DNA of 64,000 bases from the NCBI GenBank assembly GCA_965223575.1, contig CBDCWZ010000010.1, positions 1-64,000 of the forward strand, written 5' to 3'. This document shows positions 919 through 25,734 of the stretch, one piece after another; position 1 is the stretch's first letter, and each line of letters starts with the position of its first letter. Both the position numbers and the translations under genes were made by a program. A model generated the notes under the pieces. That model searched no databases. It was not told the origin of the DNA and saw only the letters and a list, made by a program, of their open reading frames with translations. This DNA comes from Kofleriaceae bacterium. Its GTDB lineage: Bacteria > Myxococcota_A > Polyangia > Haliangiales > Haliangiaceae.

Positions 919-1774
919 GGGGTGTCCTCATTAGATCCAGAGGATGGCGCAGGCCAGGAGAAGGAAACCGAGGTAACTTGTTGCCGTTTTTTCATAGCGT
1001 GTTGCGATCCGTCGCCAGCGCTTGATGGTGTGAAAGAAGCATTCCACAAGATAACGCTGCTTGTACATCTCCTTGTCATGCCGGCGTTTCCTCTTCCTTG
1101 ATTTGCCTGATGGAATTACCGGTTTCAGGCCGCGCTCTTTGAGTTCACTAATGATTCGGTCCGAATCGTACGCTCCATCTGCGAGAACAGCTTCACCGTG
1201 AACATAGTCGATCAGTTCCTCGGCCACGGTGGAATCGTGCTGCTGTCCTGGGGTAACAAGGATATGGATAGGTCGTGCTTTCATGTCGACCGCAACATGG
1301 ATCTTCGTGGAGAAACCGCCCCTTGAGCGACCTATTTCGTTTTTTTTGGACCGCCCTTTCCACCCGAAGCATCCTGATGAGTGCGAACAACGGAACCATC
1401 TAGGATCGCACCGATCTCATCATCGTTCAGGCACAAGGCGCGAAATATGTCACGCCAACGGTCCTTGTTCGCCCAGCGCCAGAATCGATTGTACACAGTC
1501 TTCCACGGACCAAATCGCTCAGGAAGATCTCTCCACGGTGCACCCGTTTTTCCAATCCAGTGCACTGCGTTGATAAAACTTCGGTCTCCCCTTTTCGACG
1601 TTTGACCGTGTGGGGGCGGAAGGAGTCCCTCTATCTTGTTCCACTGTTCATCACTGAGTTCGTGGCGCCTCATATAGTGATGTTGATCAATGATCAGTTC
1701 CCGGCGCCAGTTTTTGAACCAACGGCCGGCTAACCGATCGAAATGATCCAGTTTCTAATAGGGACATCCCCTAG
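915..1774 (-). mobile_element. IS5-family (IS427-like) insertion sequence, about 860 bp
   Basis: Imperfect terminal inverted repeats CTAGGGGGTGTCCTCATTAGA (915-) and the reverse complement of 1774- (CTAGGGGATGTCCCTATTAGA). CTAG is present at both ends. Two-ORF transposase inside. Confidence 0.8.
931..1673 (-). CDS. IS5-family DDE transposase, orfA (1332-1673) and orfB (931-about 1340) joined by a -1 frameshift
   Basis: orfA has the DUF4096-type N terminus (GAPWRDLPERFGPWKTVYNRFWRW). orfB has the DDE C terminus (YDSDRI...YKQRYLVECFF..KRWRRIATRYEK). A slippery A8 run (T8 on the + strand, 1340-1347) lies in the overlap. Confidence 0.8.
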
Positions 1775-2691: not shown

Positions 2692-2724
2692 AGCCGTCCC
2701 AGGAAAACCTCGGACGGCTTTTTC
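2692..2724 (+). terminator. Rho-independent terminator-like hairpin
   Basis: Stem agccgtcc/ggacggct (8 bp, 12-nt loop) followed by ttttt; 9 nt upstream of the first tRNA. Confidence 0.45.
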
Positions 2725-2732
2725 GTGTTTCG

Positions 2733-2874
2733 GGGGGCACTCCACGGGTTGGTTGCCGCGGCTGTAAACCGCTTGCACGAGGGTTAACTAGGGTCCTTCG
2801 GACCCGTTGCCAGGGCCGAAAAATTCCATTGCATGGAATTTGTTCACCAACCTGGTCGAGTCCTTCTGCCCCCA
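2733..2874 (+). tRNA. tRNA-Tyr(GUA)-like, split in the T-loop by a 71-nt element (2786-2856)
   Basis: Acceptor gggggca/tgccccc. Anticodon loop ctGTAaa. T arm gaggg-TT[insert]CGAGT-ccttc. D arm poorly paired, short variable loop, no CCA. Confidence 0.55.
2786..2856 (+). repeat. T-loop element copy 1 (71 nt, subfamily B)
   Basis: Starts AACTAGG. P1 gggtcc/ggaccc, P2 ccagg/cctgg, P3 gaaaaattcca/tggaatttgttc. Flanks gagggTT|CGAGTcc. Confidence 0.85.
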
Positions 2875-2983
2875 CGACGGGAGACGTGCGCCCAGAAAAT
2901 GGCGCACACGAAAAACAATGACAGCGAAGCGAAAGGAAAAACGATGACGATGACAAAACGAAAACGGATGTGCGGACAACTTC

Positions 2984-3127
2984 TGCCTCCGTGACGCAAC
3001 GGTAGCGTAACCGACTTTTAATCGGAAAGTTGGGGGTTAACTAGGATGCTTCGCATCCGTTGACGCCACGGTATAAATCCAGCGAACTGGATTTATACCG
3101 TAAGGCGGACGATTCCCTCCGGGGCAC
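2984..3127 (+). tRNA. tRNA-Lys(UUU), split in the T-loop by a 71-nt element (3039-3109)
   Basis: D arm acgc/gcgt. Anticodon loop ctTTTaa. T arm ggggg-TT[insert]CGATT-ccctc. Acceptor halves (tgcctcc / cggggca) pair imperfectly. Confidence 0.55.
3039..3109 (+). repeat. T-loop element copy 2 (71 nt, subfamily A)
   Basis: AACTAGG start. P1 ggatgc/gcatcc, P2 cgcc/ggcg, P3 ggtataaatccag/ctggatttatacc. Flanks gggggTT|CGATTcc. Confidence 0.85.
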
Positions 3128-3128
3128 G

Positions 3129-3221
3129 ACCGCGTTGCTGAAGATTTTGCAGAGCGTAGTGGACGCAGTCCACGGAGCTGCAAAAGTTCAGGCGCGTTAA
3201 CGGTCCTGTAGGGACCCAGTT
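3129..3221 (-). repeat. T-loop element copy 3 (93 nt, long subfamily C, reverse)
   Basis: The reverse complement starts AACTGGGTCC and ends ...CAGCAACGCGGT. Flanks on the element strand are gaTT|CGtg. Lies between tRNA-Lys(UUU) and tRNA-Gln(CUG). Confidence 0.75.
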
Positions 3222-3227
3222 AATCAT

Positions 3228-3298
3228 TCGGAGATCGTCTAACGGTAGGACGACTGGCTCTGGACCAGTAAATCGGGGTTCGAATCCCTGTCTCCGAC
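3228..3298 (+). tRNA. tRNA-Gln(CUG)
   Basis: Acceptor tcggaga/tctccga. D arm gtct/ggac. Anticodon loop ctCTGga. T arm cgggg-ttcgaat-ccctg. The 3' end is abutted by reverse element copy 4. Confidence 0.8.
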
Positions 3299-3367
3299 CG
3301 CGTTGCTGAACAAATTCAACGAAGTGGAATTTTTCAGCCGCGATAACGGGTCCGAAGGACCCTAGTT
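3297..3367 (-). repeat. T-loop element copy 4 (71 nt, subfamily B, reverse)
   Basis: The reverse complement reads AACTAGGGTCCTTCGGACCCGTT...GCAACGCGGT. P2 cgcg/cgcg. Element-strand flanks ctggTT|CGgaga. Excising it restores tctccgaACCA. Confidence 0.85.
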
Positions 3368-3502
3368 AACCAGAACGAAACTGCGGTGTTCGCGACACGA
3401 GTGCCTTGAGTGGCCAGGGTGAACGACATCATCGGTGGATTCGCGATCTTTGACAACTGAATAGCGACGACGACAACGCGGGGCGTTTCCCGACGCCCCA
3501 TT

Positions 3503-3578
3503 TCCCACTTTGGCGTAGGTGGTCCGCGCGCCGGTCTGAAGAGCCGGAGGACCTGGTTCGATTCCAGGAGGGTGGGAC
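3503..3578 (+). tRNA. tRNA-Phe(GAA)-like, aberrant acceptor/T junction
   Basis: Anticodon arm ccggt-ctGAAga-gccgg. T arm cctgg-ttcgatt-ccagg. tcccact/ggtggga pair only if 2 extra nt follow the T stem. Confidence 0.45.
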
Positions 3579-3584
3579 TTTTGC

Positions 3585-3737
3585 GGGTTCGTGGTGAAAC
3601 AGGATCATACCGGGTTCTTACCCCGTGAGTGAACTGCGCGCGGCCGAAGGCCGTGCTCGTTACCGCGGTTGAAAAATTCCAGTTTGTACTGGAATTTGTT
3701 CAACAACGCGGTGAGCGTGCAAATCGTTCCGGACCCA
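3585..3737 (+). tRNA. tRNA-Lys(CUU), split between the variable loop and the T stem by an 81-nt element (3632-3712)
   Basis: Acceptor gggttcg/cggaccc. D arm gtga/tcat. Anticodon loop ttCTTac. T arm gagcg-tgcaaat-cgttc. Confidence 0.6.
3632..3712 (+). repeat. T-loop element copy 5 (81 nt, hybrid: GC-rich P1 plus B-type P3)
   Basis: AACTGCGCGC start. P1 gcgcggcc/ggccgtgc, P2 cgcg/cgcg, P3 gaaaaattccag/ctggaatttgttc. Atypical flanks gagTG|GAgcg. Confidence 0.75.
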
Positions 3738-3749
3738 CTACTCGCGTTT

Positions 3750-3893
3750 GCCCCTGGAAGCATCTGGGCGAGGCTAGCCGGCTGTCTACCGGCCGAGGAG
3801 GGTTAACTAGGATGCTCCGCATCCGTTGACGCCACTGTACAAATCCAGCGAACTGGATTTGTACAGTAAGGCGGACGATTCCCTTCAGGGGCG
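3750..3893 (+). tRNA. tRNA-Asp(GUC), split in the T-loop by a 71-nt element (3805-3875)
   Basis: Acceptor gcccctg/caggggc (perfect). Anticodon arm gccgg-ctGTCta-ccggc. T arm gaggg-TT[insert]CGATT-ccctt. Confidence 0.65.
3805..3875 (+). repeat. T-loop element copy 6 (71 nt, subfamily A)
   Basis: AACTAGG. P1 ggatgc/gcatcc, P2 cgcc/ggcg, P3 tgtacaaatccag/ctggatttgtaca. Flanks gagggTT|CGATTcc. Confidence 0.85.
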
Positions 3894-3933
3894 CTTTGGA
3901 AGCGCAAGCCAACTGGCGATGGCACCCGATTCG

Positions 3934-4027
3934 ACCGGGTTGCTAAACTTTTGCGAAGCAGAGCGGATGTTCGTCCGCGGAGCTGCAACAAGTTTAGACG
4001 CGGTGACGGGTCCGAAGGACCCTAGTC
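3934..4027 (-). repeat. T-loop element copy 7 (94 nt, subfamily C, reverse) in an anticodon loop
   Basis: The reverse complement starts GACTAGGGTCCTTCGGACCCGTCACCGCG and ends ...CAACCCGGT. Element-strand flanks cccgagTT|CGAAtcggg. Confidence 0.75.
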
Positions 4028-4042
4028 AACTCGGGGCAGGTT

Positions 4043-4117
4043 AACTGCGCGCGCCTTCGGCGTGCTCGTTAACGCCGCTGTACAACTCCAGTTGCTGGAT
4101 TTGTACAGCAAGGCGGA
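4043..4117 (+). repeat. T-loop element copy 8 (75 nt, hybrid: GC-rich P1 plus A-type P3)
   Basis: AACTGCGCGC. P1 gcgcgcc/ggcgtgc, P2 cgcc/ggcg, P3 ctgtacaactccag/ctggatttgtacag. Flanks gcaggTT|CAACTcc. Confidence 0.8.
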
Positions 4118-4140
4118 CAACTCCTGTCGCTTCCGCCGAT

Positions 4141-4223
4141 GGAAGGTAATCAGGCTGCGGAGCCTGGCCCGGCTGCTACCCGGTGCGCGCCAACAGCGTC
4201 TGGCTCGACTCCAGTGCCTTCCG
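4141..4223 (+). tRNA. tRNA-Ser(GCU), class II
   Basis: Acceptor ggaaggt/gccttcc. Anticodon loop ctGCTac. Long variable arm. G73. T-loop ctcgact. Confidence 0.7.
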
Positions 4224-4227
4224 CAAT

Positions 4228-4302
4228 GGCCCGGTCGTCTAATGGTCAGGACACGAGGCTTTCAATCTCGGAATCGGAGTTCGATTCTCCGTCGGGTCAC
4301 CA
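4228..4302 (+). tRNA. tRNA-Glu(UUC)
   Basis: Acceptor ggcccgg/tcgggtc. D arm gtct/ggac. Loop ctTTCaa. T arm cggag-ttcgatt-ctccg. Encoded CCA. Confidence 0.85.
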
Positions 4303-4303
4303 C

Positions 4304-4375
4304 GGGCTGATAGTGATAGTGGGAACACGCTGCTTTCGCACGGCAGAAAGCCGGGTTCGAATCCCGGTCGGTCCA
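4304..4375 (+). tRNA. tRNA-Ala(CGC)
   Basis: Acceptor gggctga/tcggtcc with G3:U70. Loop ttCGCac. T arm ccggg-ttcgaat-cccgg. Begins 1 nt after the preceding tRNA. Confidence 0.8.
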
Positions 4376-4391
4376 CTTTAGCTCCTTCAAT

Positions 4392-4467
4392 GGGCACGCA
4401 TGTACCAAGGGGGCGAGCTGGCCTTGCAAGCCGGCTGTGGTCGGTTCGATTCCGACCGTGTCCACCA
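4392..4467 (+). tRNA. tRNA-Ala(UGC), D arm poorly paired
   Basis: Acceptor gggcacg/cgtgtcc with G3:U70. Anticodon arm ctggc-ctTGCaa-gccgg. T arm gtcgg-ttcgatt-ccgac. CCA. Confidence 0.6.
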
Positions 4468-4474
4468 TCCAATA

Positions 4475-4620
4475 CCAGGTGTAAGTCAGCGGCAGACGGC
4501 ATCGTTTGGGACGATGCAGACGGAGGTTAACTAGGATGCTCCGCATCCGTTGACGCCACTGTACAAATCCAGCGAACTGGATTTGTACAGTAAGGCGGAC
4601 GATTCCTCCAGGGGGCACCA
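4475..4620 (+). tRNA. tRNA-Pro(UGG), split in the T-loop by a 71-nt element (4529-4599); acceptor halves non-complementary
   Basis: Anticodon arm catcg-ttTGGga-cgatg. T arm ggagg-TT[insert]CGATT-cctcc (perfect). 5' ccaggtg versus 3' agggggc do not pair. CCA present. Confidence 0.5.
4529..4599 (+). repeat. T-loop element copy 9 (71 nt, subfamily A)
   Basis: Nearly identical to copy 6. Flanks ggaggTT|CGATTcc. Confidence 0.85.
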
Positions 4621-4634
4621 CACGCATCGATCTT

Positions 4635-4708
4635 CCGCCGGTAGTTCAACGGGAGAACTGTCGCCTGATAAGCGGCCAATGGTGGTTCGATTCCACCCTG
4701 GCGGACCA
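4635..4708 (+). tRNA. tRNA-Ile(GAU)
   Basis: Acceptor ccgccgg/ctggcgg. D arm gttc/gaac. Loop ctGATaa. T arm ggtgg-ttcgatt-ccacc. CCA. Confidence 0.85.
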
Positions 4709-4709
4709 T

Positions 4710-4784
4710 GGTGATCGTAGCTCAAAGGTAGAGCACTCGGCTGTGACCCGAGCGGTGGGAGTTCGATTCTCCTCGATCACCCCA
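4710..4784 (+). tRNA. tRNA-His(GUG) with G-1
   Basis: G-1 opposite C73. Acceptor gtgatcg/cgatcac. D arm gctc/gagc. Loop ctGTGac. CCA. Confidence 0.85.
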
Positions 4785-4796
4785 ACTTCCTTTTCA

Positions 4797-4870
4797 GCGG
4801 GCTTGGCGTAACAGCAGCGTATCAGGCTTCCAACCTGAGGGTACGGGTGCAATTCCCGTAGCCCGCACCA
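4797..4870 (+). tRNA. tRNA-Gly(UCC)
   Basis: Acceptor gcgggct/agcccgc. Anticodon arm tcagg-ctTCCaa-cctga. T arm acggg-tgcaatt-cccgt (unusual T-loop). CCA. Confidence 0.75.
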
Positions 4871-4872
4871 AC

Positions 4873-4943
4873 GCCTTCGTAGCACAGGGGCAGTGCACTG
4901 GTTTCGTACTCCAGGGACGTGGGTTCGATTCCCGCCGAAGGCT
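4873..4943 (+). tRNA. tRNA-Thr(CGU)
   Basis: Acceptor gccttcg/cgaaggc. D arm gcac/gtgc. Loop ttCGTac. T arm gtggg-ttcgatt-cccgc. Confidence 0.75.
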
Positions 4944-4947
4944 CCGC

Positions 4948-5018
4948 TTCGGTGTCGTCCAACGGCAGGACAGCGGTCTTTGAAGCCGACGACCGGGGTT
5001 CGAATCCCTGCACCGGAA
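4948..5018 (+). tRNA. tRNA-Gln(UUG)
   Basis: Acceptor ttcggtg/caccgga. D arm gtcc/ggac. Loop ctTTGaa. T arm cgggg-ttcgaat-ccctg. Confidence 0.75.
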
Positions 5019-5022
5019 CTGC

Positions 5023-5096
5023 GCCTCTCGTAGCCATCTGGGAAGGCACCTGCCTTGTAAGCAGGCTAGGCGGTTCGATTCCGACGAGGGGCTCCA
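5023..5096 (+). tRNA. tRNA-Thr(UGU)
   Basis: Acceptor gcctctc/gaggggc. Anticodon arm cctgc-ctTGTaa-gcagg. T arm ggcgg-ttcgatt-ccgac (1 mismatch). CCA. Confidence 0.65.
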
Positions 5097-5101
5097 TCTA
5101 T

Positions 5102-5173
5102 TCCTCCGTGGCTTAACGGTAGAGCACCCGGCTGTTAACCGGGGATGTGCAGGTTCGACTCCTGCCGGGGAGC
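5102..5173 (+). tRNA. tRNA-Asn(GUU)
   Basis: D arm gctt/gagc. Anticodon arm cccgg-ctGTTaa-ccggg. T arm gcagg-ttcgact-cctgc. One C:A mismatch in the acceptor. Confidence 0.7.
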
Positions 5174-5176
5174 TAT

Positions 5177-5329
5177 GTCGCTATCGTCCAGTTGGCGAGG
5201 ACGCCGGTCTCTCAAGCCGGAAACGGCGGGTTAACTAGGATGCTTCGCATCCGTTGACGCCGCTGAACAAATCCAGCGAACTGGATTTGTTCAGCAAGGC
5301 GGGCAAGTCCCCCTCCCCTAGCGACGCCA
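5177..5329 (+). tRNA. tRNA-Glu(CUC), split in the T-loop by a 71-nt element (5233-5303)
   Basis: Acceptor gtcgcta/tagcgac (perfect). D arm gtcc/ggac. Loop ctCTCaa. TT[insert]CAAGT. The 3' T-stem side carries 5 extra nt. CCA. Confidence 0.6.
5233..5303 (+). repeat. T-loop element copy 10 (71 nt, subfamily A)
   Basis: AACTAGG. P1 ggatgc/gcatcc, P2 cgcc/ggcg, P3 ctgaacaaatccag/ctggatttgttcag. Flanks gcgggTT|CAAGTcc. Confidence 0.85.
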
Positions 5330-5340
5330 TGCGATCGTCG

Positions 5341-5416
5341 ACCGCGTTGCTGAACAAATTCAACGAAGTGGAATTTTTCAGCCGCGGTAACGAGCACGCC
5401 GAAGGCGCGCGCAGTT
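5341..5416 (-). repeat. T-loop element copy 11 (76 nt, hybrid, reverse)
   Basis: The reverse complement starts AACTGCGCGCGCCTTCGGCGTGCTCGTTACCGCGG and carries a B-type P3. Element-strand flanks ttgTT|CGacga. Confidence 0.8.
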
Positions 5417-5443
5417 AACAAGAGCTATTGAGGCCAAGGGGTT

Positions 5444-5514
5444 GACTAGGGTCCTTCGGACCCGTCACCGCGGCTGTAATCCTCCAGTAAACTGGATGAT
5501 TACAGCAACGCGGT
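5444..5514 (+). repeat. T-loop element copy 12 (71 nt, B-like variant)
   Basis: GACTAGG start. P1 gggtcc/ggaccc, P2 cgcg/cgcg, P3 ctgtaatcctccag/ctggatgattacag. Flanks aggggTT|CGATTcc. Confidence 0.8.
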
Positions 5515-5535
5515 CGATTCCCACCGTCGGCTCCA
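5515..5535 (+). tRNA. Orphan tRNA 3' fragment (half T-loop, T stem, acceptor, CCA)
   Basis: cgatt-cccac-cgtcggc-t-cca follows copy 12. Only about 25 nt lie upstream between copies 11 and 12, so the 5' two-thirds of the gene are missing. Confidence 0.4.
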
Positions 5536-5543
5536 ATCACTAT

Positions 5544-5615
5544 GCCTCCACCCAAGGATGGGACGCGGCGCTACGAACGCTGTCGATGAAGGTTCGAGTC
5601 CTTCTGGAGGTGCCA
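5544..5615 (+). tRNA. tRNA-Arg(ACG)-like with a compact D arm
   Basis: Acceptor gcctcca/tggaggt. ccca-agga-tggg hairpin directly after the acceptor. Anticodon arm cggcg-ctACGaa-cgctg. T arm gaagg-ttcgagt-ccttc. CCA. Confidence 0.55.
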
Positions 5616-5617
5616 AT

Positions 5618-5687
5618 ACCACCGCACGTGGACTCGTGGCCTGGGGTTCCGAACCTTGGTGAAGCAGTTCGATTCTGCTCGGTGGAC
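5618..5687 (+). tRNA. tRNA-Arg(CCG)-like with a compact D arm
   Basis: Acceptor accaccg/cggtgga (6 of 7 paired). cacg-tggact-cgtg hairpin. Loop ttCCGaa. T arm agcag-ttcgatt-ctgct. Confidence 0.5.
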
Positions 5688-5785
5688 CGGGTTGCTGTAG
5701 TTATGCAAAGCGGAGCGGACGGAAGGTCCGCGAAGTTGCAGAACTACAGGCGCGATAACGGGTCGAGCGTAGCGAAACCCTAGTT
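5686..5785 (-). repeat. T-loop element copy 13 (100 nt, subfamily C, reverse)
   Basis: The reverse complement starts AACTAGGGTTTCGC and ends ...CAGCAACCCGGT. Element-strand flanks aagTT|CCaccg. Abuts the tRNA-Arg(CCG)-like 3' end. Confidence 0.7.
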
Positions 5786-5793
5786 AACTTCAT

Positions 5794-5860
5794 GGGCGAC
5801 GATCTGGGATCAGCTTGGGCTCCAAATCCGAGCAGCGGGGTTCAATTCCTCGGTCGCCTG
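5794..5860 (+). tRNA. tRNA-Trp(CCA)-like with a compact D arm
   Basis: Acceptor gggcgac/gtcgcct. gatc-tgg-gatc hairpin. Anticodon arm ttggg-ctCCAaa-tccga. T arm cgggg-ttcaatt-cctcg. 67 nt. Confidence 0.5.
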
Positions 5861-5870
5861 CAACTCTTGC

Positions 5871-5943
5871 AGTCGCGTAGCCCAACGGAAGAGGCGGCAG
5901 GCTTAGAACCTGTGTGTTGGGGGTTCGAATCCTCCCGCGACTA
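5871..5943 (+). tRNA. tRNA with Leu anticodon UAG but a class-I (5-nt) variable loop
   Basis: Acceptor agtcgcg/cgcgact. Leu-type D arm gcc-caacggaaga-ggc. Anticodon arm gcagg-ctTAGaa-cctgt. T arm ggggg-ttcgaat-cctcc. A73. Confidence 0.6.
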
Positions 5944-5946
5944 CTG

Positions 5947-6091
5947 CGGTACGTAGCCCAATCGGCAGAGGCATCCAGTTTAAGCCCGGACCAGTGAGGG
6001 TTAACTAGGATGCTTCGCATCCGTTGACGCCACTGTACAAATCCAGCGAACTGGATTTGTACAGTAAGGCGGACGACTCCCTCCGTACCGA
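5947..6091 (+). tRNA. tRNA with Leu anticodon UAA, class-I variable loop, split in the T-loop (6003-6073)
   Basis: Acceptor cggtacg/cgtaccg (perfect). D arm gcc-caatcggcaga-ggc. Loop ttTAAgc (1 stem mismatch). T arm gaggg-TT[insert]CGACT-ccctc. A73. Confidence 0.55.
6003..6073 (+). repeat. T-loop element copy 14 (71 nt, subfamily A)
   Basis: Same P1, P2 and P3 as copy 6. Flanks gagggTT|CGACTcc. Confidence 0.85.
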
Positions 6092-6098
6092 CCTTCGA

Positions 6099-6243
6099 GC
6101 CAACGTAGCCCAACTGGCAGAGGCACCGGATTCAAATCGCGGACAGTATCGGTTAACTAGGATGCTCTGCATCCGTTAACGCCGCCGAACAAATCCAGCG
6201 AACTGGATTTGTTCAGCAAGGCGGACGACTCCGATCGTTGGCA
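6099..6243 (+). tRNA. tRNA with Leu anticodon CAA, class-I variable loop, split in the T-loop (6155-6225)
   Basis: Acceptor gccaacg/cgttggc (perfect). D arm gcc-caactggcaga-ggc. Loop ttCAAat (2 stem mismatches). T arm atcgg-TT[insert]CGACT-ccgat (perfect). A73. Confidence 0.5.
6155..6225 (+). repeat. T-loop element copy 15 (71 nt, subfamily A)
   Basis: AACTAGG. P1 ggatgc/gcatcc (loop tct), P2 cgcc/ggcg, P3 gaacaaatccag/ctggatttgttc. Flanks atcggTT|CGACTcc. Confidence 0.85.
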
Positions 6244-6249
6244 CAAAAC

Positions 6250-6408
6250 GCGGACGTGGTGGAACGGGATACACGCAACGTTGAGAGCGTTGTGAGCCAC
6301 GTGCTCAATGCCGGTTAACTCGGGGCCTTTGGACCCGTTCTCGGGGCTGAAAAATTCCACGATGTGGAATTTGTTCACCAACCCGGTCGAATCCGGCCGT
6401 CCGCACCA
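6250..6408 (+). tRNA. tRNA-Leu(GAG), class II, split in the T-loop by a 71-nt element (6317-6387)
   Basis: Acceptor gcggacg/cgtccgc (perfect). Anticodon arm caacg-ttGAGag-cgttg. 17-nt variable arm. T arm gccgg-TT[insert]CGAAT-ccggc (perfect). A73 and CCA. Confidence 0.75.
6317..6387 (+). repeat. T-loop element copy 16 (71 nt, subfamily B)
   Basis: AACTCGG start. P1 ggggcc/ggaccc, P2 cggg/cccg, P3 gaaaaattccac/gtggaatttgttc. Flanks gccggTT|CGAATcc. Confidence 0.85.
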
Positions 6409-6441
6409 TCCAGAAACATCAACCCTCAACGAAAGGCAGCC

Positions 6442-6972
6442 ATGACGGCTCAAACACTGTTGTTGTCCGCGGGCTATGAGCCGATCAAGGTCGTCTCTTG
6501 GCAACGCGCGATAACCTTACTCACGCTCGGCAAGATCGAAGTTCTGGAAGAGTATGATCGCGAAGTTCGATCCCCGACCATTGCGTTTAAGATGCCTGCG
6601 GTCGTTCGACTTTTGCAGGTACTCAAGCGCAACAAGAAGGCAGTCAAGTTCTCGCGCATCAACATCTATGCGCGGGATAAGTACCGGTGCCAATACTGCT
6701 GTCGAAAGCTACCCATCGCCGAGTTGACCTACGACCACGTCGTTCCGCGCGCGAAGGGTGGCAAGACGATTTGGCAGAACATCGTGACCGCATGCGAAAC
6801 GTGCAACAGCCGCAAGGGGAACCGGACGCCGGAGCAAGCGCACATGGCGTTGCTCAACCGGCCAACACGGCCGACTTGGGTCCCGGTCATGACGCTTCGG
6901 GTAAACCGCAACACGGCGCCCGATGCCTGGAGAGACTATCTCTACTGGACCGGTGAACTGCAAAGCGGCTGA
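6442..6972 (+). CDS. HNH endonuclease (McrA/COG1403-like, 176 aa) embedded in the tRNA array
   Basis: Motif YRCQYC...LTYDHVVPRAKGG....N.VTACETCNSRKGNR. ATG at 6442 with gaaagg 8 nt upstream. Starts 34 nt after the CCA of tRNA-Leu(GAG). Confidence 0.8.
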   Translation: MTAQTLLLSAGYEPIKVVSWQRAITLLTLGKIEVLEEYDREVRSPTIAFKMPAVVRLLQVLKRNKKAVKFSRINIYARDKYRCQYCCRKLPIAELTYDHVVPRAKGGKTIWQNIVTACETCNSRKGNRTPEQAHMALLNRPTRPTWVPVMTLRVNRNTAPDAWRDYLYWTGELQSG

Positions 6973-7029
6973 CCGCACACCGAATGCCACGGGCCACAGA
7001 TCGGATCCGCGAGCCCGCCGGCATTCACT

Positions 7030-7117
7030 GGAGAGACAAACCGATTGGCGACGGTGCTCGGCTTGAACCCGAGTGAGCGTAACTGCCTTAGGGGTTCGAC
7101 TCCCCTTCTCTCCGCCA
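7030..7117 (+). tRNA. tRNA-Ser(UGA), class II
   Basis: Acceptor ggagaga/tctctcc. Anticodon arm ctcgg-ctTGAac-ccgag. Long variable arm. T arm agggg-ttcgact-cccct. G73 and CCA. Confidence 0.85.
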
Positions 7118-7118
7118 T

Positions 7119-7203
7119 GGAAGGCATCCGAATGGTGAGGACCCCGGTTGGAAGCCGGGCGGGCGACAACGTTGCCTTGAGGGTTCGAGTCCCTCGCCTT
7201 CCG
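7119..7203 (+). tRNA. tRNA-Ser(GGA), class II
   Basis: Acceptor ggaaggc/gccttcc. Anticodon arm cccgg-ttGGAag-ccggg. Long variable arm. T arm gaggg-ttcgagt-ccctc. G73. Confidence 0.8.
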
Positions 7204-7207
7204 CTGC

Positions 7208-7276
7208 GCCTCGCGGGACGGATCCCAGCTGGGTCTTCTAAACCCGGCGCTCCAGGTTCAATTCCTGGGCGAGGTA
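7208..7276 (+). tRNA. tRNA-Arg(UCU)-like with a compact D arm
   Basis: Acceptor gcctcgc/gcgaggt. ggga-cgga-tccc hairpin directly after the acceptor. Anticodon arm tgggt-ctTCTaa-acccg. T arm ccagg-ttcaatt-cctgg. Confidence 0.55.
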
Positions 7277-7277
7277 C

Positions 7278-7345
7278 GGCTCCTCTGATGGACCAGTCCC
7301 GGCTCTTCTAAAGCTGGAGAGAGCGTTCGATTCGCTCAGGAGCCA
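7278..7345 (+). tRNA. tRNA-Arg(UCU)-like (second copy) with a compact D arm
   Basis: Acceptor ggctcct/aggagcc. ctg-atggac-cag hairpin. Anticodon arm cggct-ctTCTaa-agctg. T arm gagcg-ttcgatt-cgctc. Confidence 0.55.
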
Positions 7346-7659: not shown

Positions 7660-8850
7660 ATGCTCTGCGTGTTTTGCAATTCTCTGTTGCCTTCGAAGAA
7701 GCCCGAACATGTAGTGAGCGCCTTCCTCGGTGGAAGACGAAGCTCAAGGAATCTGCTCTGTGATCTCCACAATGAAACGTTCGGCGGCTCATTTGAACGC
7801 CACGCGGCCAAAGGACTAGCCTCTCTGGCGAACATGCTTGGTGTCAGGAGCGGTCGCCGGCGAGCACCGCCACAAATTCAGGGCATTAAGGGACCAGACA
7901 AGTCTGAGACTTACACGCTCTTGCCAGGAGCAAAGATCATTCAACCCAAAGCGAAGGTCGAGATCGACGAGTCGGAGAACGGGCAGGTTCGAATACGCAT
8001 CAGAGCTGATGCAACCAAAGGCCATCAGATCCATAAGATTCTGGAGAGTTTCGCAGCCAAGTACGGAACCACGCTAGACGAAACGATTTTAGCCCAAGCC
8101 AACGTTACACAGATTCAACTCCCATCGCCCATTGAACTTGATATCACCCTAGGGCCGGACCTGCTGCGTTCACTCTCAAAAATCTCGTTACTACTTCTCG
8201 CTACCAAGACCGGTACAGTCGCGGTTCGAGGCTCCGCCTTTGAGGATGTTCGCAGGTTCATCGAGATCGGCGGACCAAGCAGTGAGTTCATTCGGATGAA
8301 TTCGGCAGCAAAGCTACCAACCATAGTAGGTCTGCACGAACCAGCAGTAGCCGTGCATCGTTTTTTGGTGTACGCAACTCGCGAATTCGGCTGTTTTGCG
8401 ACAATCGAACTGTATGGATGTTTTCTATTCACAGGCCTTCTTTCCAAGGAGTGGAACTCTGAAAATATTAGCGTTGGCCACTCGGTCAACCCCATCACCG
8501 AGCAACACTTCGTAGCTTATAATTTCAGTTCATCACCAATTTCGATTGACCAATTTGCTACTATCAAAGGCGATCAGGTAGCCACCAATGGCCGGCTGGA
8601 CAATCTGTTGAGCTTCGCAATAAGGCGTATGCAACAGCAAGCTCTTGAAGAAATGGTCGCACGATGTATTAATGAAAGCATTGGTAAGAGCGAGGATGTC
8701 ATTACTGAGGAAATGATCGCCAAATTGACCATGTCCTTTGCCGAGCAGTTCGTTGCTACGCAGAAGGGATACGTTCTAGAGCGACAACTCACCATTGACG
8801 ACGTTATTCCTCGAACTCCGACAGGAGAGCCCGACGGCCCTGATGAGTGA
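7660..8850 (+). CDS. HNH_5-type nuclease-domain protein with an uncharacterised C-terminal region (396 aa)
   Basis: N terminus CVFCNS...KPEHVVSAFLGG...LCDLHN matches the CxxC...EH..P..LGG...C..CN pattern of HNH_5 endonucleases. I do not recognise the rest. Confidence 0.55.
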   Translation: MLCVFCNSLLPSKKPEHVVSAFLGGRRSSRNLLCDLHNETFGGSFERHAAKGLASLANMLGVRSGRRRAPPQIQGIKGPDKSETYTLLPGAKIIQPKAKVEIDESENGQVRIRIRADATKGHQIHKILESFAAKYGTTLDETILAQANVTQIQLPSPIELDITLGPDLLRSLSKISLLLLATKTGTVAVRGSAFEDVRRFIEIGGPSSEFIRMNSAAKLPTIVGLHEPAVAVHRFLVYATREFGCFATIELYGCFLFTGLLSKEWNSENISVGHSVNPITEQHFVAYNFSSSPISIDQFATIKGDQVATNGRLDNLLSFAIRRMQQQALEEMVARCINESIGKSEDVITEEMIAKLTMSFAEQFVATQKGYVLERQLTIDDVIPRTPTGEPDGPDE

Positions 8851-9251: not shown

Positions 9252-9746
9252 CTACGCAGCGAAATCTTCTTCAACTACCCAGCCTTTTTTAGCTGAACGG
9301 AACCCAAGCCTGAGTGGTATTGCTTCTTCTTCGATTTCTTGCAGTCGATCGATAGGATATTGCTGAATTGGGTCAAAGGTGGTTGCTGCGAGTCGAAGAA
9401 GTCTATCTGCAGTCGAGTTCATTTTTTGCGATCCCGACTCCCATCGCGAAACCGTCTCACGCTCGACGCCAAAGTGTCGGGCGAAGTCAGTCCCAGACCA
9501 ACCGAGTGATTTTCTGAGGAATCGGATTTCCTCCGGTGTGAGACGAGCTGATTTGGTACTAATGGCATAGACGATGACCCGATGAAGTTCCTCGACTTTG
9601 GGAATCCCAACAAACGATTCACCGCACGCACCACAACGCTTTACATTCACACCAATCAAGGTGACGCGAACTCCTTGGGCGTCGTACAGGTGATTTTCTC
9701 TCGCTGACTTGAGTTGCCCACCACAATGTATGCACTTCATGTCCAT
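9252..9746 (-). CDS. MqsA-like antitoxin (YgiT zinc finger plus XRE HTH)
   Basis: CIHCGG...CGACGE zinc ribbon. LTPEEIRFLRKSLGWSGTDFARHFGVERETVSRWESG HTH. Confidence 0.7.
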   Translation of the reverse strand: MDMKCIHCGGQLKSARENHLYDAQGVRVTLIGVNVKRCGACGESFVGIPKVEELHRVIVYAISTKSARLTPEEIRFLRKSLGWSGTDFARHFGVERETVSRWESGSQKMNSTADRLLRLAATTFDPIQQYPIDRLQEIEEEAIPLRLGFRSAKKGWVVEEDFAA

Positions 9747-9755
9747 CTCCTTGAT

Positions 9756-10076
9756 TCAGCGGCCCATACGCCATGCTGTAACGGCCACAAGCTCCAGCTC
9801 ACTCCAGAAAGCAACCACAACAGTGATGCGCTGCGTTCGGACCTGATATCTCCAGGAACCATTTTCCCATTCGCCCTCGCCGACAACGCCGCCACGCATG
9901 ACGTTGCTACAATCAATTTCCGACAAGTTGTCGTTCGCCATTTCCTGCCGTGCATGCTTTGAGTAATAGACGGTTCCATTGGTGATGATTTCTCGGATGA
10001 GCCGTTTTGCGTCCGAACTACTGAGTGGCTCATCCATATGTGATCTTATATCACATATTGACTTATAGTCAAACAC
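9756..10076 (-). CDS. DUF4258-like toxin partner
   Basis: SKHARQEMANDNLSEIDCSNVMRGG pattern. 9 nt upstream of the antitoxin gene on the same strand. Confidence 0.55.
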   Translation of the reverse strand: MFDYKSICDIRSHMDEPLSSSDAKRLIREIITNGTVYYSKHARQEMANDNLSEIDCSNVMRGGVVGEGEWENGSWRYQVRTQRITVVVAFWSELELVAVTAWRMGR

Positions 10077-22951: not shown

Positions 22952-23300
22952 GTGACCGGTCGGCGGCGAATCGGCAAAACTACTTTGATTCAGAAGGCCC
23001 TCGGGTCTGAACGGAAACACGGGGTTTTTTACATCCAAATTCCCGACTCAGGTCCTGCTGGTGTTCTGTCTGGAATTGCAGACGCTATGGATACTTTTGC
23101 GATTAATGAGGACGCCTTTCCTCGGCCAACGAATCTATCGCAGCTCGCCAGCATAGTGGGCCAACTGGCGCGCGCGGGCTATATTGTAGCGCTCGATGAG
23201 TTTCAGTATTTCAATCGTGCGAGACTGAAGGACTTCTGCTCACTGCTTCAGAGCGAGGTCGACAGACTATCGTCAGATGCCGAGAAGTATGCGCCCAATG
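22952..23300 (+). pseudogene. AAA ATPase (Arch_ATPase/DUF234 type), 5' part, interrupted by IS66
   Basis: Walker A GRRRIGKTTL and Walker B VALDEF. The reading frame ends at the IS66 boundary. Confidence 0.65.
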
Positions 23301-23377
23301 CGCCCCATGTAGCATGAATCATCTGGCGGCAGTATTGTCGCTACATGGAACCATGCGGTTCAACAAACTCGATCGGT

Positions 23378-24973: not shown

Positions 24974-25734
24974 GCGTGTCCGACATTCTCACCTTTACGA
25001 AACTCTTGATTGCGATTGTTTTTCCGCGAAGAAGTTTCGCCAAATCCTCTGCTTTGATCTCGATCGTGTTCCTGATCTTGTTTGGGAATCGGAAATGTCC
25101 CAGACTCAAGTCGCTTCGCCAAAATGCAATATCCCTGCTGATCAAAAAACAAAATCTTGAGCAGATGACGCCGACGATTGGCAAATACGTATAGATGGCC
25201 GGTTTCTGGATCTGCGTCCAGCGCTTCACGAACAACCTTCGCAAGACCATCAAACTGTTTCCTCATGTCAACAGGATTCACTGCCACAAAAACGCGGACC
25301 TTCGTCGGTAGCGTTAACATGAGCCATCCAGAGAGTTTGCCCACTCGCAGACATTCTCGCCGATCCGACTTGGAACAAAACAATAAACGCCTGCCGTTTT
25401 TGAGAACGAGCTCGTAGCGGGGTTCTCCGCTCAAAGCAATCTCGTCACGAACCTTTACTTCAACAAATTCTGTCTGGCCAGATTGTTTTTCACGCCTCTG
25501 CCAACTCCATAACGCAGACGCCGAGATCCCATGATGTTTGCCAAATTCTACCGCAGACCGATTGCTCTTCTGCCATGCGCGGAGAATCTTTCGCTGCTCT
25601 GCACGACTTCTTTGAATCCGTTTTTGCATTCCATGCGGTTTAACTCGACAGGCTGCTGCGCGAAACATGGGGCTCACGGGGCGCATACGCCGAGAACGTC
25701 TCTGGGGGGACTGCTCGTTCTGGGATCCATTCAC
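24970..25734 (-). CDS. IS66 TnpA (HTH) and TnpB (Orf2) read as one frame
   Basis: AVEFGKHHGISASALWSW (TnpA), then LPTKVRVFVAVNPVDMRKQFDGLAKVV...LYVFANRRRHLLKILFFD (TnpB). Confidence 0.7.
   Translation of the reverse strand: MNGSQNEQSPQRRSRRMRPVSPMFRAAACRVKPHGMQKRIQRSRAEQRKILRAWQKSNRSAVEFGKHHGISASALWSWQRREKQSGQTEFVEVKVRDEIALSGEPRYELVLKNGRRLLFCSKSDRRECLRVGKLSGWLMLTLPTKVRVFVAVNPVDMRKQFDGLAKVVREALDADPETGHLYVFANRRRHLLKILFFDQQGYCILAKRLESGTFPIPKQDQEHDRDQSRGFGETSSRKNNRNQEFRKGENVGHA

What the first reader, a model, noticed from the sequence alone, without database searches (positions are those of the whole stretch)
2786..6387. Sixteen copies of a 71-100 nt three-helix element inserted at GTT^CG sites; eleven split tRNA genes, ten of them exactly between T55 and C56 of the T-loop
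Seen directly.
- Forward copies: 2786-2856, 3039-3109, 3632-3712, 3805-3875, 4043-4117, 4529-4599, 5233-5303, 5444-5514, 6003-6073, 6155-6225, 6317-6387.
- Reverse copies: 3129-3221, 3297-3367, 3934-4027, 5341-5416, 5686-5785.
- Ten copies are exactly 71 nt.
- All begin AACT(A/G/C)GG or GACTAGG and fold into the same three helices. P1 is 6-8 bp with a 3-nt loop (GGATGC/GCATCC, GGGTCC/GGACCC, GCGCGCC/GGCGTGC). A CGTT joiner follows. P2 (CGCC/GGCG, CCAGG/CCTGG, CGCG/CGCG, CGGG/CCCG) closes a long P3 hairpin (TGTACAAATCCAG/CTGGATTTGTACA, GAAAAATTCCA/TGGAATTTGTTC, CTGTAATCCTCCAG/CTGGATGATTACAG).
- The helices differ in sequence between copies but stay paired, which is compensatory variation.
- Deleting each of ten forward copies rejoins a canonical 7-nt T-loop, TT|C(G/A)AnT, mostly flanked by complementary T-stem halves.
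- The acceptor halves on either side are perfectly complementary for Tyr, Asp, Glu(CUC), Leu(UAA), Leu(CAA), Leu(GAG) and the doubly hit gene. Each of these is therefore one tRNA gene split at 55/56.
- Reverse copies lie where the opposite strand reads (G/A)TT|C(G/C).
- There are no terminal inverted repeats and no target-site duplication.

Established knowledge.
- The bacterial tRNA introns I know of are group I/II introns in the anticodon loop.
- T-loop introns removed by an endonuclease plus RtcB are known from archaea.
- Hairpin-ended, TIR-less, TSD-less insertion next to a short target word is the signature of IS200/IS605-type (Y1 transposase) elements and their miniature derivatives.

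Inference. This is either a new T-loop-specific miniature mobile element that is eroding an accessory tRNA array, or a new class of bacterial tRNA intervening sequence. The sense-orientation bias (11 of 16) and the rtcB at 33.5 kb keep the second reading open. I know of no description of either.
Basis: partly seen in the sequence, partly recalled or inferred. Interest (0 to 1): 0.92.

Follow-up and report, generated by a model that had tools for sequence, protein, structure and literature searches.

The report
Hairpin mobile element splitting tRNA T-loops
A small non-coding mobile DNA element (67-100 bp) has inserted itself, without leaving a footprint, into the conserved GTT^CG word of the T-loop in about a third of the genes of an accessory tRNA array, and it behaves like a gene-breaking parasite rather than a spliced intron.

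Summary
A covariance model finds 16 copies at the stated coordinates and none elsewhere in the 64 kb. The fold is supported by covariation, and excising the forward copies lets ARAGORN recover six more tRNAs.

The element is mobile at the DNA level. A close relative's array (L018) has about 21 copies, 11 at the same sites as the window and the rest at different sites. A third homologous array (L019) has none. Filled and empty sites differ by exactly the element, between GTT and CG, with no duplication.

Antisense copies sit at look-alike words, including one inside an anticodon loop. The 11:5 orientation bias matches where the target word lies (28 of 33 GTTCG sites are on the + strand).

The copies damage the array:
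- One 'gene' is a Pro/Val chimera left by recombination between two copies.
- tRNA-Ser(CGA) carries two hits and a 16-nt deletion.

Related longer copies lie in ordinary intergenic DNA of other metagenomic contigs.

No bulge-helix-bulge motif, Rfam family, transposase gene or publication matched. My best reading is a new, trans-mobilised element without terminal inverted repeats or target duplication (the IS200/IS605 or REP style) that is eroding a Myxococcota tRNA array. The intron reading is not excluded, but nothing positive supports it (about 0.1).

The parts
2700..7300 (+). Accessory long tRNA array (about 35 tRNA or tRNA-like genes, all on the + strand) that hosts every copy of the element
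   Evidence: ARAGORN and Rfam. Homologous arrays are L018-L024, L003 and L005.
2786..2856 (+). Copy, 71 nt, in tRNA-Tyr(GUA) 2733-2875 between T55 and C56
   Evidence: Filled in L018 and L020, empty in L019.
3039..3109 (+). Copy, 71 nt, in tRNA-Lys(UUU) 2984-3127 between T55 and C56
3129..3221 (-). Antisense long copy, 93 nt, 1 nt after the 3' end of tRNA-Lys. The target on the - strand reads ATT|CG.
3297..3367 (-). Antisense copy, 71 nt, inside the last base pair of the tRNA-Gln(CUG) acceptor stem. It separates the gene from its encoded ACCA. The target on the - strand reads GGTT|CGG.
3632..3712 (+). Copy, 81 nt, at the variable-region/T-stem junction of a Lys(CUU)-like tRNA (3585-3737). The junction register is shifted by 1 nt (GTG|AACT...GGT|GAG).
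   Evidence: The empty site in L018 reads GAGTT|GAGCG.
3805..3875 (+). Copy, 71 nt, in tRNA-Asp(GUC) 3750-3894 between T55 and C56
   Evidence: Empty in L019.
3934..4027 (-). Antisense long copy, 94 nt, in the anticodon loop of tRNA-Ser(CGA). The - strand there reads GAGTT|CGAAT.
   Evidence: Empty in L018.
4043..4117 (+). Copy, 75 nt, in the T-loop (TT|CAACT) of the same tRNA-Ser(CGA) remnant (about 3898-4135), which also lacks 16 nt of its variable arm
4529..4599 (+). Copy, 71 nt, flanked by the 5' half of tRNA-Pro(UGG) and the 3' half of tRNA-Val(UAC). This is the product of a deletion of about 0.9 kb between two copies.
   Evidence: L018 7041-7111 and 7935-8005.
5233..5303 (+). Copy, 71 nt, in the T-loop (TT|CAAGT) of a defective tRNA-Glu(CUC) (about 5177-5329)
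5341..5416 (-). Antisense copy, 76 nt. The target on the - strand reads TTGTT|CGA.
5444..5514 (+). Copy, 71 nt (GAC/GTC variant), in a T-arm fragment with no recognisable 5' half of a tRNA
5686..5785 (-). Antisense long copy, 100 nt, directly after the acceptor 3' strand of an Arg(CCG)-like tRNA (5625-5685). The target on the - strand reads AGTT|CC.
6003..6073 (+). Copy, 71 nt, in tRNA-Leu(UAA) 5947-6093 between T55 and C56
   Evidence: Empty in L019.
6155..6225 (+). Copy, 71 nt, in tRNA-Leu(CAA) 6099-6244 between T55 and C56
   Evidence: Empty in L019.
6317..6387 (+). Copy, 71 nt, in tRNA-Leu(GAG) 6250-6408 between T55 and C56
   Evidence: Empty in L018, where Leu-GAG is intact at 9877-9964.
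6442..6972 (+). Context: small HNH endonuclease (176 aa), the conserved companion gene of these arrays. It is present in arrays with and without the element.
   Evidence: PMC8421152.

Best explanation
The sixteen copies belong to a family of small (67-100 bp), non-coding mobile DNA elements built from hairpins.

**Shown**
- A copy enters DNA precisely after the word GTT (occasionally GT) and before C, usually CGA.
- It always enters in the same orientation relative to that word.
- It has no terminal inverted repeats and leaves no target duplication.
- GGTTCGA is the coding sequence of the universally conserved T54-T55-C56-R57-A58 of tRNA. A dense tRNA array is therefore a field of targets on one strand, and the element splits tRNA genes between T55 and C56.
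- It also enters the same word on the other strand, at acceptor 3' ends and in an anticodon loop.
- Copy number differs greatly between close relatives.
- Copies serve as substrates for recombination that deletes tRNA genes.

**Inferred**
- The element is non-autonomous and is moved in trans by an enzyme encoded elsewhere.
- That enzyme recognises the folded ends. The first three nucleotides pair with nucleotides 21-23, and the last two pair with nucleotides 24-25, so the two ends abut at a junction.
- This suggests a single-strand or hairpin-dependent mechanism of the IS200/IS605 or REP-RAYT (HUH nuclease) kind. This step is the weakest, at about one chance in three.
- Interrupted tRNA genes are most probably inactive. 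This is tolerated because the array is accessory.
For: **Copies and structure**
- Exactly 16 copies, all inside the array.
- Structure with covariation: 18 of 28 pairs change on both sides. Only 4 of 763 cells are G-U. Both strands fold equally well, and the L003/L005 subfamily folds better as antisense.

**Presence/absence between relatives**
- L018 (HNH 96% identical) has about 21 copies, 11 at window-orthologous sites.
- L019 (HNH 86% identical) has none, although its array is homologous.
- Precise filled/empty pairs, each GTT|CG with no duplication:
  - Window Tyr, Asp, Leu-UAA and Leu-CAA against L019.
  - Window Leu-GAG, the anticodon loop of Ser-CGA and 3632 against L018.
  - L018 Ala-CGC, Thr-CGU and Arg-like against the window.
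- A second pair of arrays (L003, L005) shows the same for Glu-UUC.

**Targets**
- Of 44 distinct insertion contexts, 34 have GTT on the left and 30 have CGA on the right.
- Per-site occupancy is no higher on the sense strand (8/28 against 3/5).

**Damage**
- Pro/Val chimera.
- Ser-CGA with two hits plus a 16-nt deletion.
- The copy in tRNA-Tyr carries a different P2-breaking substitution in L018 and in L020.

**Spread of the family**
- Members occur outside tRNA genes, including tandem copies.
- One such long copy inserted recently in L018.
- Distribution is sporadic: 6 arrays with the element, 4 without.
- Different tRNAs are hit in different lineages.
Against: - No transposase candidate was found. 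The window ORFs I scanned hold only IS5- and IS66-type DDE transposases. No longer protein-coding relative of the element turned up in any fetched locus.
- The two end hairpins do not resemble each other, unlike IS200/IS605 ends.
- The short target word does not explain confinement to the array. GTTCG is occupied at 11 of 33 sites in the array and 0 of 180 outside (p = 2e-10). GGTTCGA is occupied at 8 of 21 and 0 of 16 (p = 0.006). Extra assumptions are needed: selection against insertions in coding DNA, local hopping, or a preference for hairpin or transcribed DNA.
- The junction register varies by one nucleotide (GTT|AACT...GGA|C against GT|G-AACT...GG|TC). I cannot derive this from a known mechanism.
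- Nothing here shows that the interrupted tRNAs are non-functional.
Confidence: 0.72

Rival explanations
1. A mobile T-loop intron. The sense copies are transcribed within the pre-tRNA, cut out by an unidentified endoribonuclease and the halves are joined by RtcB. Insertions in T-loops would then be phenotypically silent, as with group I introns or IStrons.
For: - The exons of six interrupted genes are intact enough for ARAGORN after excision, and eight to nine more in L018.
- The element's fold brings the two T-loop halves together.
- At least one of the two junction nucleotides is always T, so a canonical 7-nt T-loop can always be reconstituted (44 of 44 contexts).
- Arrays lie beside RNA-repair genes: RtcR-X-RtcB-RtcA in L018, Ro60 in L003/L005, RtcB at 33.5 kb in the window.
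- The interrupted tRNA-Tyr survives in L020, where almost all of the array is gone.
Against: - There is no bulge-helix-bulge motif. Only U54 and U55 separate the T-stem from the 5' junction (and inspection).
- No Rfam intron or ribozyme family matches. The conserved unpaired nucleotides are too few for a catalytic core.
- Five of 16 copies are antisense, one of them in an anticodon loop, and per-site occupancy is not sense-biased.
- G-U pairs are almost absent, and the sense strand has no folding advantage.
- The shifted 'G...T' junction also occurs at antisense, non-T-loop sites, so it is not selected for tRNA function.
- No insertion position is conserved across lineages, and four arrays lack the element.
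- Hit genes decay.
- RtcB and HNH are general neighbours of long tRNA arrays, described without any mention of such inserts (PMC8421152).
Confidence: 0.1
2. Spread driven by the array's own HNH endonuclease. The small HNH protein nicks T-loop-coding DNA, and the element is copied into nicked sites. Occupied sites become immune, as in collaborative homing.
For: - The HNH gene is the one protein gene conserved with these arrays (PMC8421152).
- Its closest solved relatives are small HNH proteins and the HNH domains of IscB and Cas9. Small phage HNH proteins are site-specific nickases with 3-7 bp specificity (PMC3592412).
- This would explain why the element is confined to the arrays.
Against: - L019, L022, L023 and L024 have the HNH gene, intact T-loops and no element.
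- Family members in ordinary intergenic DNA have no such HNH gene nearby.
- Flanking T-stem sequences are never co-converted.
- An HNH nuclease has no strand-transfer chemistry.
Confidence: 0.08
3. No dedicated enzyme. Copies spread only within arrays, by template switching or gene conversion between the conserved T-arm sequences.
For: - All copies in array-bearing loci lie inside the arrays.
- T-arms share GGTT and CGA(A/T)TCC.
- Recombination between copies does occur.
Against: - Antisense and non-T-loop insertions share only 3-5 nt with T-loops.
- Family members occur in non-tRNA DNA and as head-to-tail tandems.
- Orientation relative to GTT is strict.
- The terminal structure is conserved by covariation, which implies recognition by a protein.
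Confidence: 0.05

Closest known systems
IS200/IS605-family elements and their miniature derivatives (palindrome-associated transposable elements), moved by a Y1 HUH transposase
   Same: No terminal inverted repeats and no target duplication. Hairpins at both ends. Insertion immediately 3' of a short fixed word in one orientation. Precise filled and empty sites. Non-coding short derivatives are mobilised in trans.
   Different: No Y1 transposase was found. The two end hairpins are unlike each other. The 5' hairpin starts only 5 nt from the cleavage point. The first three nucleotides pair internally, not with the target (GAC and GCC variants still sit after GTT). The junction register varies by 1 nt. 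The target is the tRNA T-loop word.
REP/REPIN elements with RAYT transposases
   Same: Short, structured, non-coding repeats found in many copies per genome, sometimes adjacent or in tandem, and thought to be moved in trans by a domesticated HUH enzyme.
   Different: REPs are extragenic, carry a conserved GTAG head and occur as inverted pairs. This element has an AACTAGG head and two different hairpins, and it sits inside genes.
Non-canonical tRNA introns of Thermoproteales and other archaea, including T-loop positions and inferred intron transposition
   Same: Short inserts at T-loop positions of many tRNA genes in one genome, with related sequences in different tRNAs. An RtcB-type ligase is present.
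   Different: Archaeal introns form a bulge-helix-bulge motif with the exons, are cut by EndA, and are sense-only. Here there is no such motif, no known endonuclease, antisense copies exist, and members lie outside tRNA genes.
IS91/ISCR rolling-circle elements (Y2 HUH). Their GTTC/CTTG target is recalled from my own knowledge, not checked here.
   Same: No inverted repeats and no duplication. The target tetranucleotide GTTC overlaps the GTT|C seen here. Hairpin-containing ends.
   Different: Those elements insert next to the tetranucleotide, not within it, and are kilobase-sized coding elements. No Y2 transposase was seen.
Integrases and retroelements that use tRNA genes as landing sites (T-loop-targeting tyrosine integrases; Ty3 and TRE elements)
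   Same: They exploit the most conserved and repeated sequence available in a genome.
   Different: Integrases restore the gene by carrying a duplicate of its 3' part. Here the gene is simply split, and nothing is duplicated.
Long tRNA arrays (L-arrays) with an associated HNH gene (PMC8421152)
   Same: The host locus fits: tens of tRNA genes on one strand, a conserved small HNH gene, RNA-repair neighbours, and patchy distribution suggesting horizontal transfer.
   Different: That work describes pseudogenes, duplications and deletions, but no insert in T-loops.

Membership tests
IS200/IS605-type elements (including miniature derivatives) | No terminal inverted repeats | tested here: met
   The ends AACTAGG... 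and ...GCGG(T/A) are not inverted copies of each other.
IS200/IS605-type elements (including miniature derivatives) | No target-site duplication; precise filled/empty sites | tested here: met
   At least 12 orthologous filled/empty pairs differ by the element only. Copies ending in T leave a 1-nt ambiguity.
IS200/IS605-type elements (including miniature derivatives) | Insertion 3' of a short specific word, in a fixed orientation | tested here: met
   The left flank is GTT in 34 of 44 contexts, GTG/GTA in 7 and ATT/ATG in 3.
IS200/IS605-type elements (including miniature derivatives) | Similar subterminal hairpins at the left and right ends, bound by the same transposase | tested here: not met
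   P1 (6 bp, 3-nt loop) and P2/P3 (about 19 bp) share no sequence.
IS200/IS605-type elements (including miniature derivatives) | A Y1 HUH transposase in an autonomous copy or elsewhere in the genome | tested here: inconclusive
   None among the window ORFs scanned or the L001/L002 ORFs. The rest of the genome is not available.
Classical MITE | Terminal inverted repeats plus target-site duplication | tested here: not met
Archaeal-type (endonuclease plus RtcB) tRNA intron | Bulge-helix-bulge motif at the exon-intron junctions | tested here: not met
   In the pre-tRNA fold the element folds on its own. Only 2 nt lie between the T-stem and the 5' junction, so there is no 4-bp central helix with 3-nt bulges (and inspection).
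Archaeal-type (endonuclease plus RtcB) tRNA intron | Sense orientation only, within transcribed tRNA | tested here: not met
   Five of 16 copies are antisense in the window, 6-7 of 21 in L018 and 2 of 8 in L005.
Archaeal-type (endonuclease plus RtcB) tRNA intron | Removal from the RNA, giving a mature tRNA | not testable with these tools
   This needs tRNA-seq or RT-PCR.
Group I / group II introns and known self-cleaving ribozymes | Match to the catalytic-core covariance models | tested here: not met
   Rfam 15 at gathering threshold and at E <= 5 gave only tRNA-clan hits and chance matches. The size is 67-100 nt.
REP/REPIN-RAYT | Extragenic palindromes with a conserved GTAG head; a RAYT gene | tested here: not met
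   The head is (A/G)ACT(A/G/C). The copies are intragenic here. No RAYT was seen in the scanned ORFs.
Integron attC site / cassette | RYYYAAC...GTTRRRY cores with crossover at G|TT | tested here: not met
   The junction falls after GTT, not after G. Copies of the GGA type have no TT at the right junction.
Serine-recombinase-moved element (2-nt crossover) | The same dinucleotide at both junctions | tested here: not met
   Junction pairs such as TT...GA and TG...GT cannot be reconciled with any 2-nt overlap.
Long tRNA array (L-array), as host locus | Tens of co-oriented tRNA genes with a conserved small HNH gene | tested here: met
   PMC8421152.

The most novel reading that the evidence does not exclude
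The element is both things at once. It is a DNA-mobile parasite and also a true bacterial tRNA intron at position 55/56. Its folded ends present the two junctions to a protein endonuclease of the array-linked RNA-repair system, and RtcB reseals the T-loop. This would be the first protein-spliced tRNA intron in Bacteria, and the bacterial counterpart of mobile archaeal tRNA introns.
Probability: 0.1. Interest if true: 0.95.

Novelty: new variant of a known kind. Interest (0 to 1): 0.62.

Why it matters
- It shows a mobile element using the most conserved short word in biology, the tRNA T-loop sequence, as its landing site. This turns accessory tRNA arrays into nurseries for the element and erodes them through gene disruption and inter-copy deletion.
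- It explains why tRNA finders undercount genes in such arrays. Six genes in the window and eight to nine in L018 reappear after excision.
- It offers a clean natural system of many precise filled and empty sites between close relatives. That system could be used to find the enzyme behind a family without inverted repeats or target duplication.
- It makes a sharp question testable: can bacteria splice a T-loop insert?

Tried and rejected
- **Phage origin of the window.** Rejected. The window holds glutamate synthase, HflX, ABC-F and similar genes, and the phage database gave only tRNA-level similarity.
- **Known RNA families.** No Rfam family matched, even at a permissive threshold.
- **Other sequence collections.** No match in IMG/VR with the P1 word. 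The 55 hits to a 15-mer from the long-copy end were chance, and none was confirmed by the model; the double hit in L025 is a coding repeat. No match in plasmids.
- **Autonomous copy.** P1 modules without the usual 3' part (L004, L014, L016) are followed by unrelated genes or a toxin-antitoxin pair, not a transposase.
- **Transposase near intergenic copies.** None in L001, L002 or L013.
- **AAC(1-3) as a guide that pairs with the target GTT.** Rejected, because the GAC and GCC variants still sit after GTT.
- **Integron-like or serine-recombinase crossover.** Rejected on junction sequences.
- **G55 T-loops (TGCAAT) as excision footprints.** Rejected. The same tRNA-Gly(UCC) has this T-loop in arrays without the element.
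- **The 721-aa gene between rtcR and rtcB in L018 as a candidate endonuclease.** It has no Pfam family and no homologue in the window.
- **Strand asymmetry of wobble pairs as a test of RNA against DNA.** Mixed result. The helix bodies favour the antisense strand or neither strand, while the two terminal pairs use G-T on the sense strand.
- **Source record of the window.** Exact look-ups failed.

Full report
**1. What is in the window**

The region 2.7-7.3 kb is a dense, single-strand array of tRNA genes. ARAGORN finds 16 genes there and Rfam finds 13-14. A small HNH endonuclease gene (6442-6972) and three more tRNA genes follow it.

The rest of the window is ordinary bacterial chromosome: glutamate synthase, HflX, an ABC-F ATPase, RtcB at 33.5 kb, a DTW-domain protein, and IS5- and IS66-type insertion sequences.

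An exact HflX match shows that the window comes from a 65.4-kb contig held by NCBI and ENA. Its closest named relatives, at about 60% identity, are Enhygromyxa and Nannocystaceae of the Myxococcota.

The locus fits the 'long tRNA arrays' (L-arrays) described with a conserved HNH gene and RNA-repair neighbours (PMC8421152, read).

**2.

All sixteen intervals hold the element. A covariance model built from ten 71-nt copies finds exactly those sixteen and nothing in the other 60 kb.

The fold is supported by covariation, measured on 28 distinct copies from six loci:
- 18 of 28 pairs change on both sides (107 cells).
- 89.8% of cells pair, against 24-46% with slid partners.
- No shuffle reaches the observed values (smaller set).

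I refine the anatomy in two ways.
- Nucleotides 1-3 pair with 21-23. The pairing covaries as AAC/GTT, GAC/GTC and once GCC/GGC.
- The last two nucleotides usually pair with 24-25, as A-T/C-G, wobble, or tandem G-A.

In the fold, therefore, the two ends of the element abut on adjacent nucleotides.

Removing the forward copies lets ARAGORN call Tyr, Lys-UUU, Asp, Leu-UAA, Leu-CAA and Leu-GAG.

**3. It is mobile at the DNA level**

I fetched loci through homologues of the HNH protein. This gave two arrays from one metagenome that are homologous to the window's array.
- L018 (HNH 96% identical) has about 21 copies.
- L019 (HNH 86% identical) has none. Its Tyr, Lys, Asp, Leu-UAA and Leu-CAA genes are intact.

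Eleven insertions are shared by the window and L018, with identical flanks. The others differ in both directions:
- Ala-CGC, Thr-CGU and an Arg-like tRNA are filled in L018 and empty in the window.
- Leu-GAG, the anticodon loop of Ser-CGA and site 3632 are filled in the window and empty in L018.

In every pair the alleles differ by the element alone. The junction falls between GTT and C, and nothing is duplicated.

A second, unrelated pair of syntenic arrays from Myxococcota contigs (L003, L005) shows the same for Glu-UUC.

A more distant array on a 1.3-Mb contig (L021) carries two copies of another subfamily. One lies at position 55/56 of an otherwise perfect tRNA-Asn.

Four further arrays with the same HNH gene have none: L019, L022, L023 (Haliangium) and L024 (a phage-like contig).

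The tRNAs that are hit differ between lineages. The element is therefore a sporadic coloniser, not an inherited feature of particular tRNAs.

**4. Target and orientation**

Across 44 distinct insertion contexts:
- The left flank is GTT in 34, GTG/GTA in 7 and ATT/ATG in 3.
- The right flank begins CGA in 30 and C in 41.

The five antisense copies in the window sit where the minus strand happens to read the same word. Two lie at or next to acceptor 3' ends, reading GGTT|CGG and AGTT|CC. One lies in the Ser-CGA anticodon loop, whose complement reads GAGTT|CGAAT.

After in-silico excision the array holds 33 GTTCG words, 28 of them on the + strand.
- Occupancy is 8 of 28 on the + strand and 3 of 5 on the - strand (Fisher p = 0.30).
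- The 11:5 orientation bias is therefore explained by where the targets are.

The short word does not explain confinement to the array.
- GTTCG is occupied at 11 of 33 sites inside and 0 of 180 outside (p = 2e-10).
- GGTTCGA is occupied at 8 of 21 inside and 0 of 16 outside (p = 0.006).

Possible reasons are selection against 71-bp insertions in coding DNA, local hopping, or a preference for hairpin or transcribed DNA. I cannot separate these.

**5. A junction peculiarity**

One nucleotide at the junction is variable. It sits either at the 3' end of the element (GTT|AACT...GGA|CGA; 11 contexts) or at the 5' end (GT|G-AACT...GG|T-CGA; 8 contexts). With T the two cases are indistinguishable (23 contexts).

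At least one of the two positions is always T.

For site 3632, the only difference between the filled window allele and the empty L018 allele in 44 flanking bases is this nucleotide.

The shifted arrangement also occurs at antisense, non-T-loop sites in L005. It is therefore a property of the insertion process or of the sublineage, not of selection to rebuild a T-loop.

It rules out a 2-nt (serine-recombinase) or G|TT (integron) crossover. I have no derivation for it from a known mechanism.

**6. Consequences for the host locus**

- The 'gene' around 4529-4599 is the 5' half of Pro-UGG joined to the 3' half of Val-UAC. In L018 these two genes each carry a copy and lie 0.9 kb apart, with five tRNA genes between them. 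Recombination between the copies deleted that stretch in the window.
- Ser-CGA in the window carries an antisense copy in its anticodon loop, a sense copy in its T-loop and a 16-nt deletion in its variable arm. It is intact in L018 and L019.
- The copy in tRNA-Tyr has acquired a different P2-breaking substitution in L018 and in L020.
- In L020 nearly the whole array has been lost.

**7. Members outside tRNA genes**

Pattern scans of one genome per species and of metagenomes returned longer relatives of 93-100 bp. They have the same 5' module, a branched 3' hairpin and the ending ...CAGCCATGTT.
- They lie in ordinary intergenic DNA, for example between a DegP-type protease gene and a xanthine-dehydrogenase subunit gene in L013.
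- Some are head-to-tail tandems. That is expected if the terminal GTT of one copy serves as the target for the next.
- One such copy inserted recently, in antisense, in the 5' part of Ala-CGC of L018.
- The long antisense copies in the window (93, 94 and 100 nt) belong to this class.

**8. Intron or transposon**

Against an RNA-level reading:
- There is no bulge-helix-bulge motif. The element folds on its own, and only U54 and U55 separate the T-stem from the 5' junction.
- No Rfam intron or ribozyme family matches at any threshold.
- G-U pairs are nearly absent (4 of 763 cells).
- The antisense strand folds as well as the sense strand, and clearly better in the L003/L005 subfamily. The two terminal pairs do use G-T on the sense strand, so this test is mixed.
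- Antisense and gene-killing copies exist.
- There is no positional conservation.
- RNA-repair neighbours accompany arrays whether or not the element is present (PMC8421152).

For it:
- Several interrupted genes have intact exons.
- The ends abut in the fold.
- A canonical T-loop can always be reconstituted.

I put splicing at about 0.1.

**9. Mechanism**

What is shown:
- Insertion is precise, orientation-specific and free of duplication, after GT(T).
- Both ends are structured.
- The element has no coding capacity.
- Copy number is high and changes fast between relatives.

What is inferred:
- The element is mobilised in trans by an enzyme that reads folded DNA ends.
- The closest analogues are IS200/IS605-type miniature elements and REP/RAYT systems.

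What does not fit:
- I found no HUH transposase in the window or in any fetched locus.
- The two end hairpins are dissimilar.

Membership in that family is therefore not claimed.

The array's HNH protein resembles small site-specific nickases and IscB/Cas9 HNH domains (PMC3592412). It is an alternative driver. However, it is also present in arrays without the element.

**10. Novelty**

Full-text searches for T-loop inserts, interrupted bacterial tRNA genes, or repeat elements in tRNA arrays found no description. The L-array paper mentions pseudogenes and rearrangements only.

I rate it a new variant of a known kind: a small, trans-mobilised hairpin element with a new and striking target.

Noticed in passing
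window 931-1673 (-): An IS5/IS4-type transposase in two frames (DUF4096, then DDE_Tnp_1), immediately upstream of the array. In L018 and L019 a large serine recombinase gene lies at the corresponding side of the array.
   Followed up: partly
window 23378-25734 (-), with 22952-23317 and 26048-26743 (+): An IS66-family element (TnpB_IS66 and DDE_Tnp_IS66) appears to split an AAA/DUF234 ATPase gene into two ORFs.
   Followed up: no
window 4797-4870; L018 8203-8276; L019 9149-9222; L023 936-1008: The array tRNA-Gly(UCC) has the T-loop TGCAA(T/A/C)T, that is G at position 55 instead of the near-universal U. This is conserved across arrays with and without the element. Ala-CGC in L021 and Cys in L023 have it too.
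   Followed up: partly
window 2733-2875 (after excision): The array tRNA-Tyr(GUA) is 72 nt and lacks the long variable arm typical of bacterial tRNA-Tyr. Several other array tRNAs score poorly or are missed by ARAGORN (for example 4141-4222, 5625-5685 and 5793-5860).
   Followed up: no
window 3297-3372: The antisense copy at the end of tRNA-Gln(CUG) replaces the last acceptor nucleotide with its own A. The stem stays intact, but the gene is cut off from its encoded ACCA.
   Followed up: partly
window 7660-8850 (+): A 396-aa ORF with a weak N-terminal HNH_5 match and no other family, just downstream of the array. It has no counterpart next to the L018 array.
   Followed up: no
window 9252-10076 (-): A probable toxin-antitoxin pair: an MqsA-like HTH antitoxin and a DUF4258 protein.
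   Followed up: no
L018 11051-17538: Directly after the array and HNH gene lies an RtcR - 721-aa protein of no known family - RtcB - RtcA operon. The 721-aa protein has no homologue in the window.
   Followed up: partly
L005 2056-2219 (-) against L003 1212-1366: In L005 an intact tRNA-Ser(CGA) is followed, after 5 nt, by an isolated T-arm fragment carrying a copy. In L003 the copy sits inside the Ser(CGA) T-loop. The rearrangement linking the two states is unexplained.
   Followed up: partly
L003 1897-3474; L005 about 1500-1640 (-); L023 1202-2794: Ro60/TROVE-vWA (Rsr-like) genes are embedded in or next to these tRNA arrays. No Y-RNA-like Rfam hit was seen in the window.
   Followed up: no
L024 (Ga0366838_1000030, 191 kb): A phage-like contig (many short ORFs, an amidase, phage zinc-binding domains) carries a 35-tRNA array with the same HNH gene and no element. 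This suggests that such arrays also travel in large phages.
   Followed up: no
window 3750-3894: In the RNA fold of the interrupted pre-tRNA-Asp, exon G53-U54-U55 plus AAC(1-3) can pair with GUUGAC (21-26). The left junction GTT|AAC and the internal GTT|GAC are both GTYRAC palindromes.
   Followed up: no
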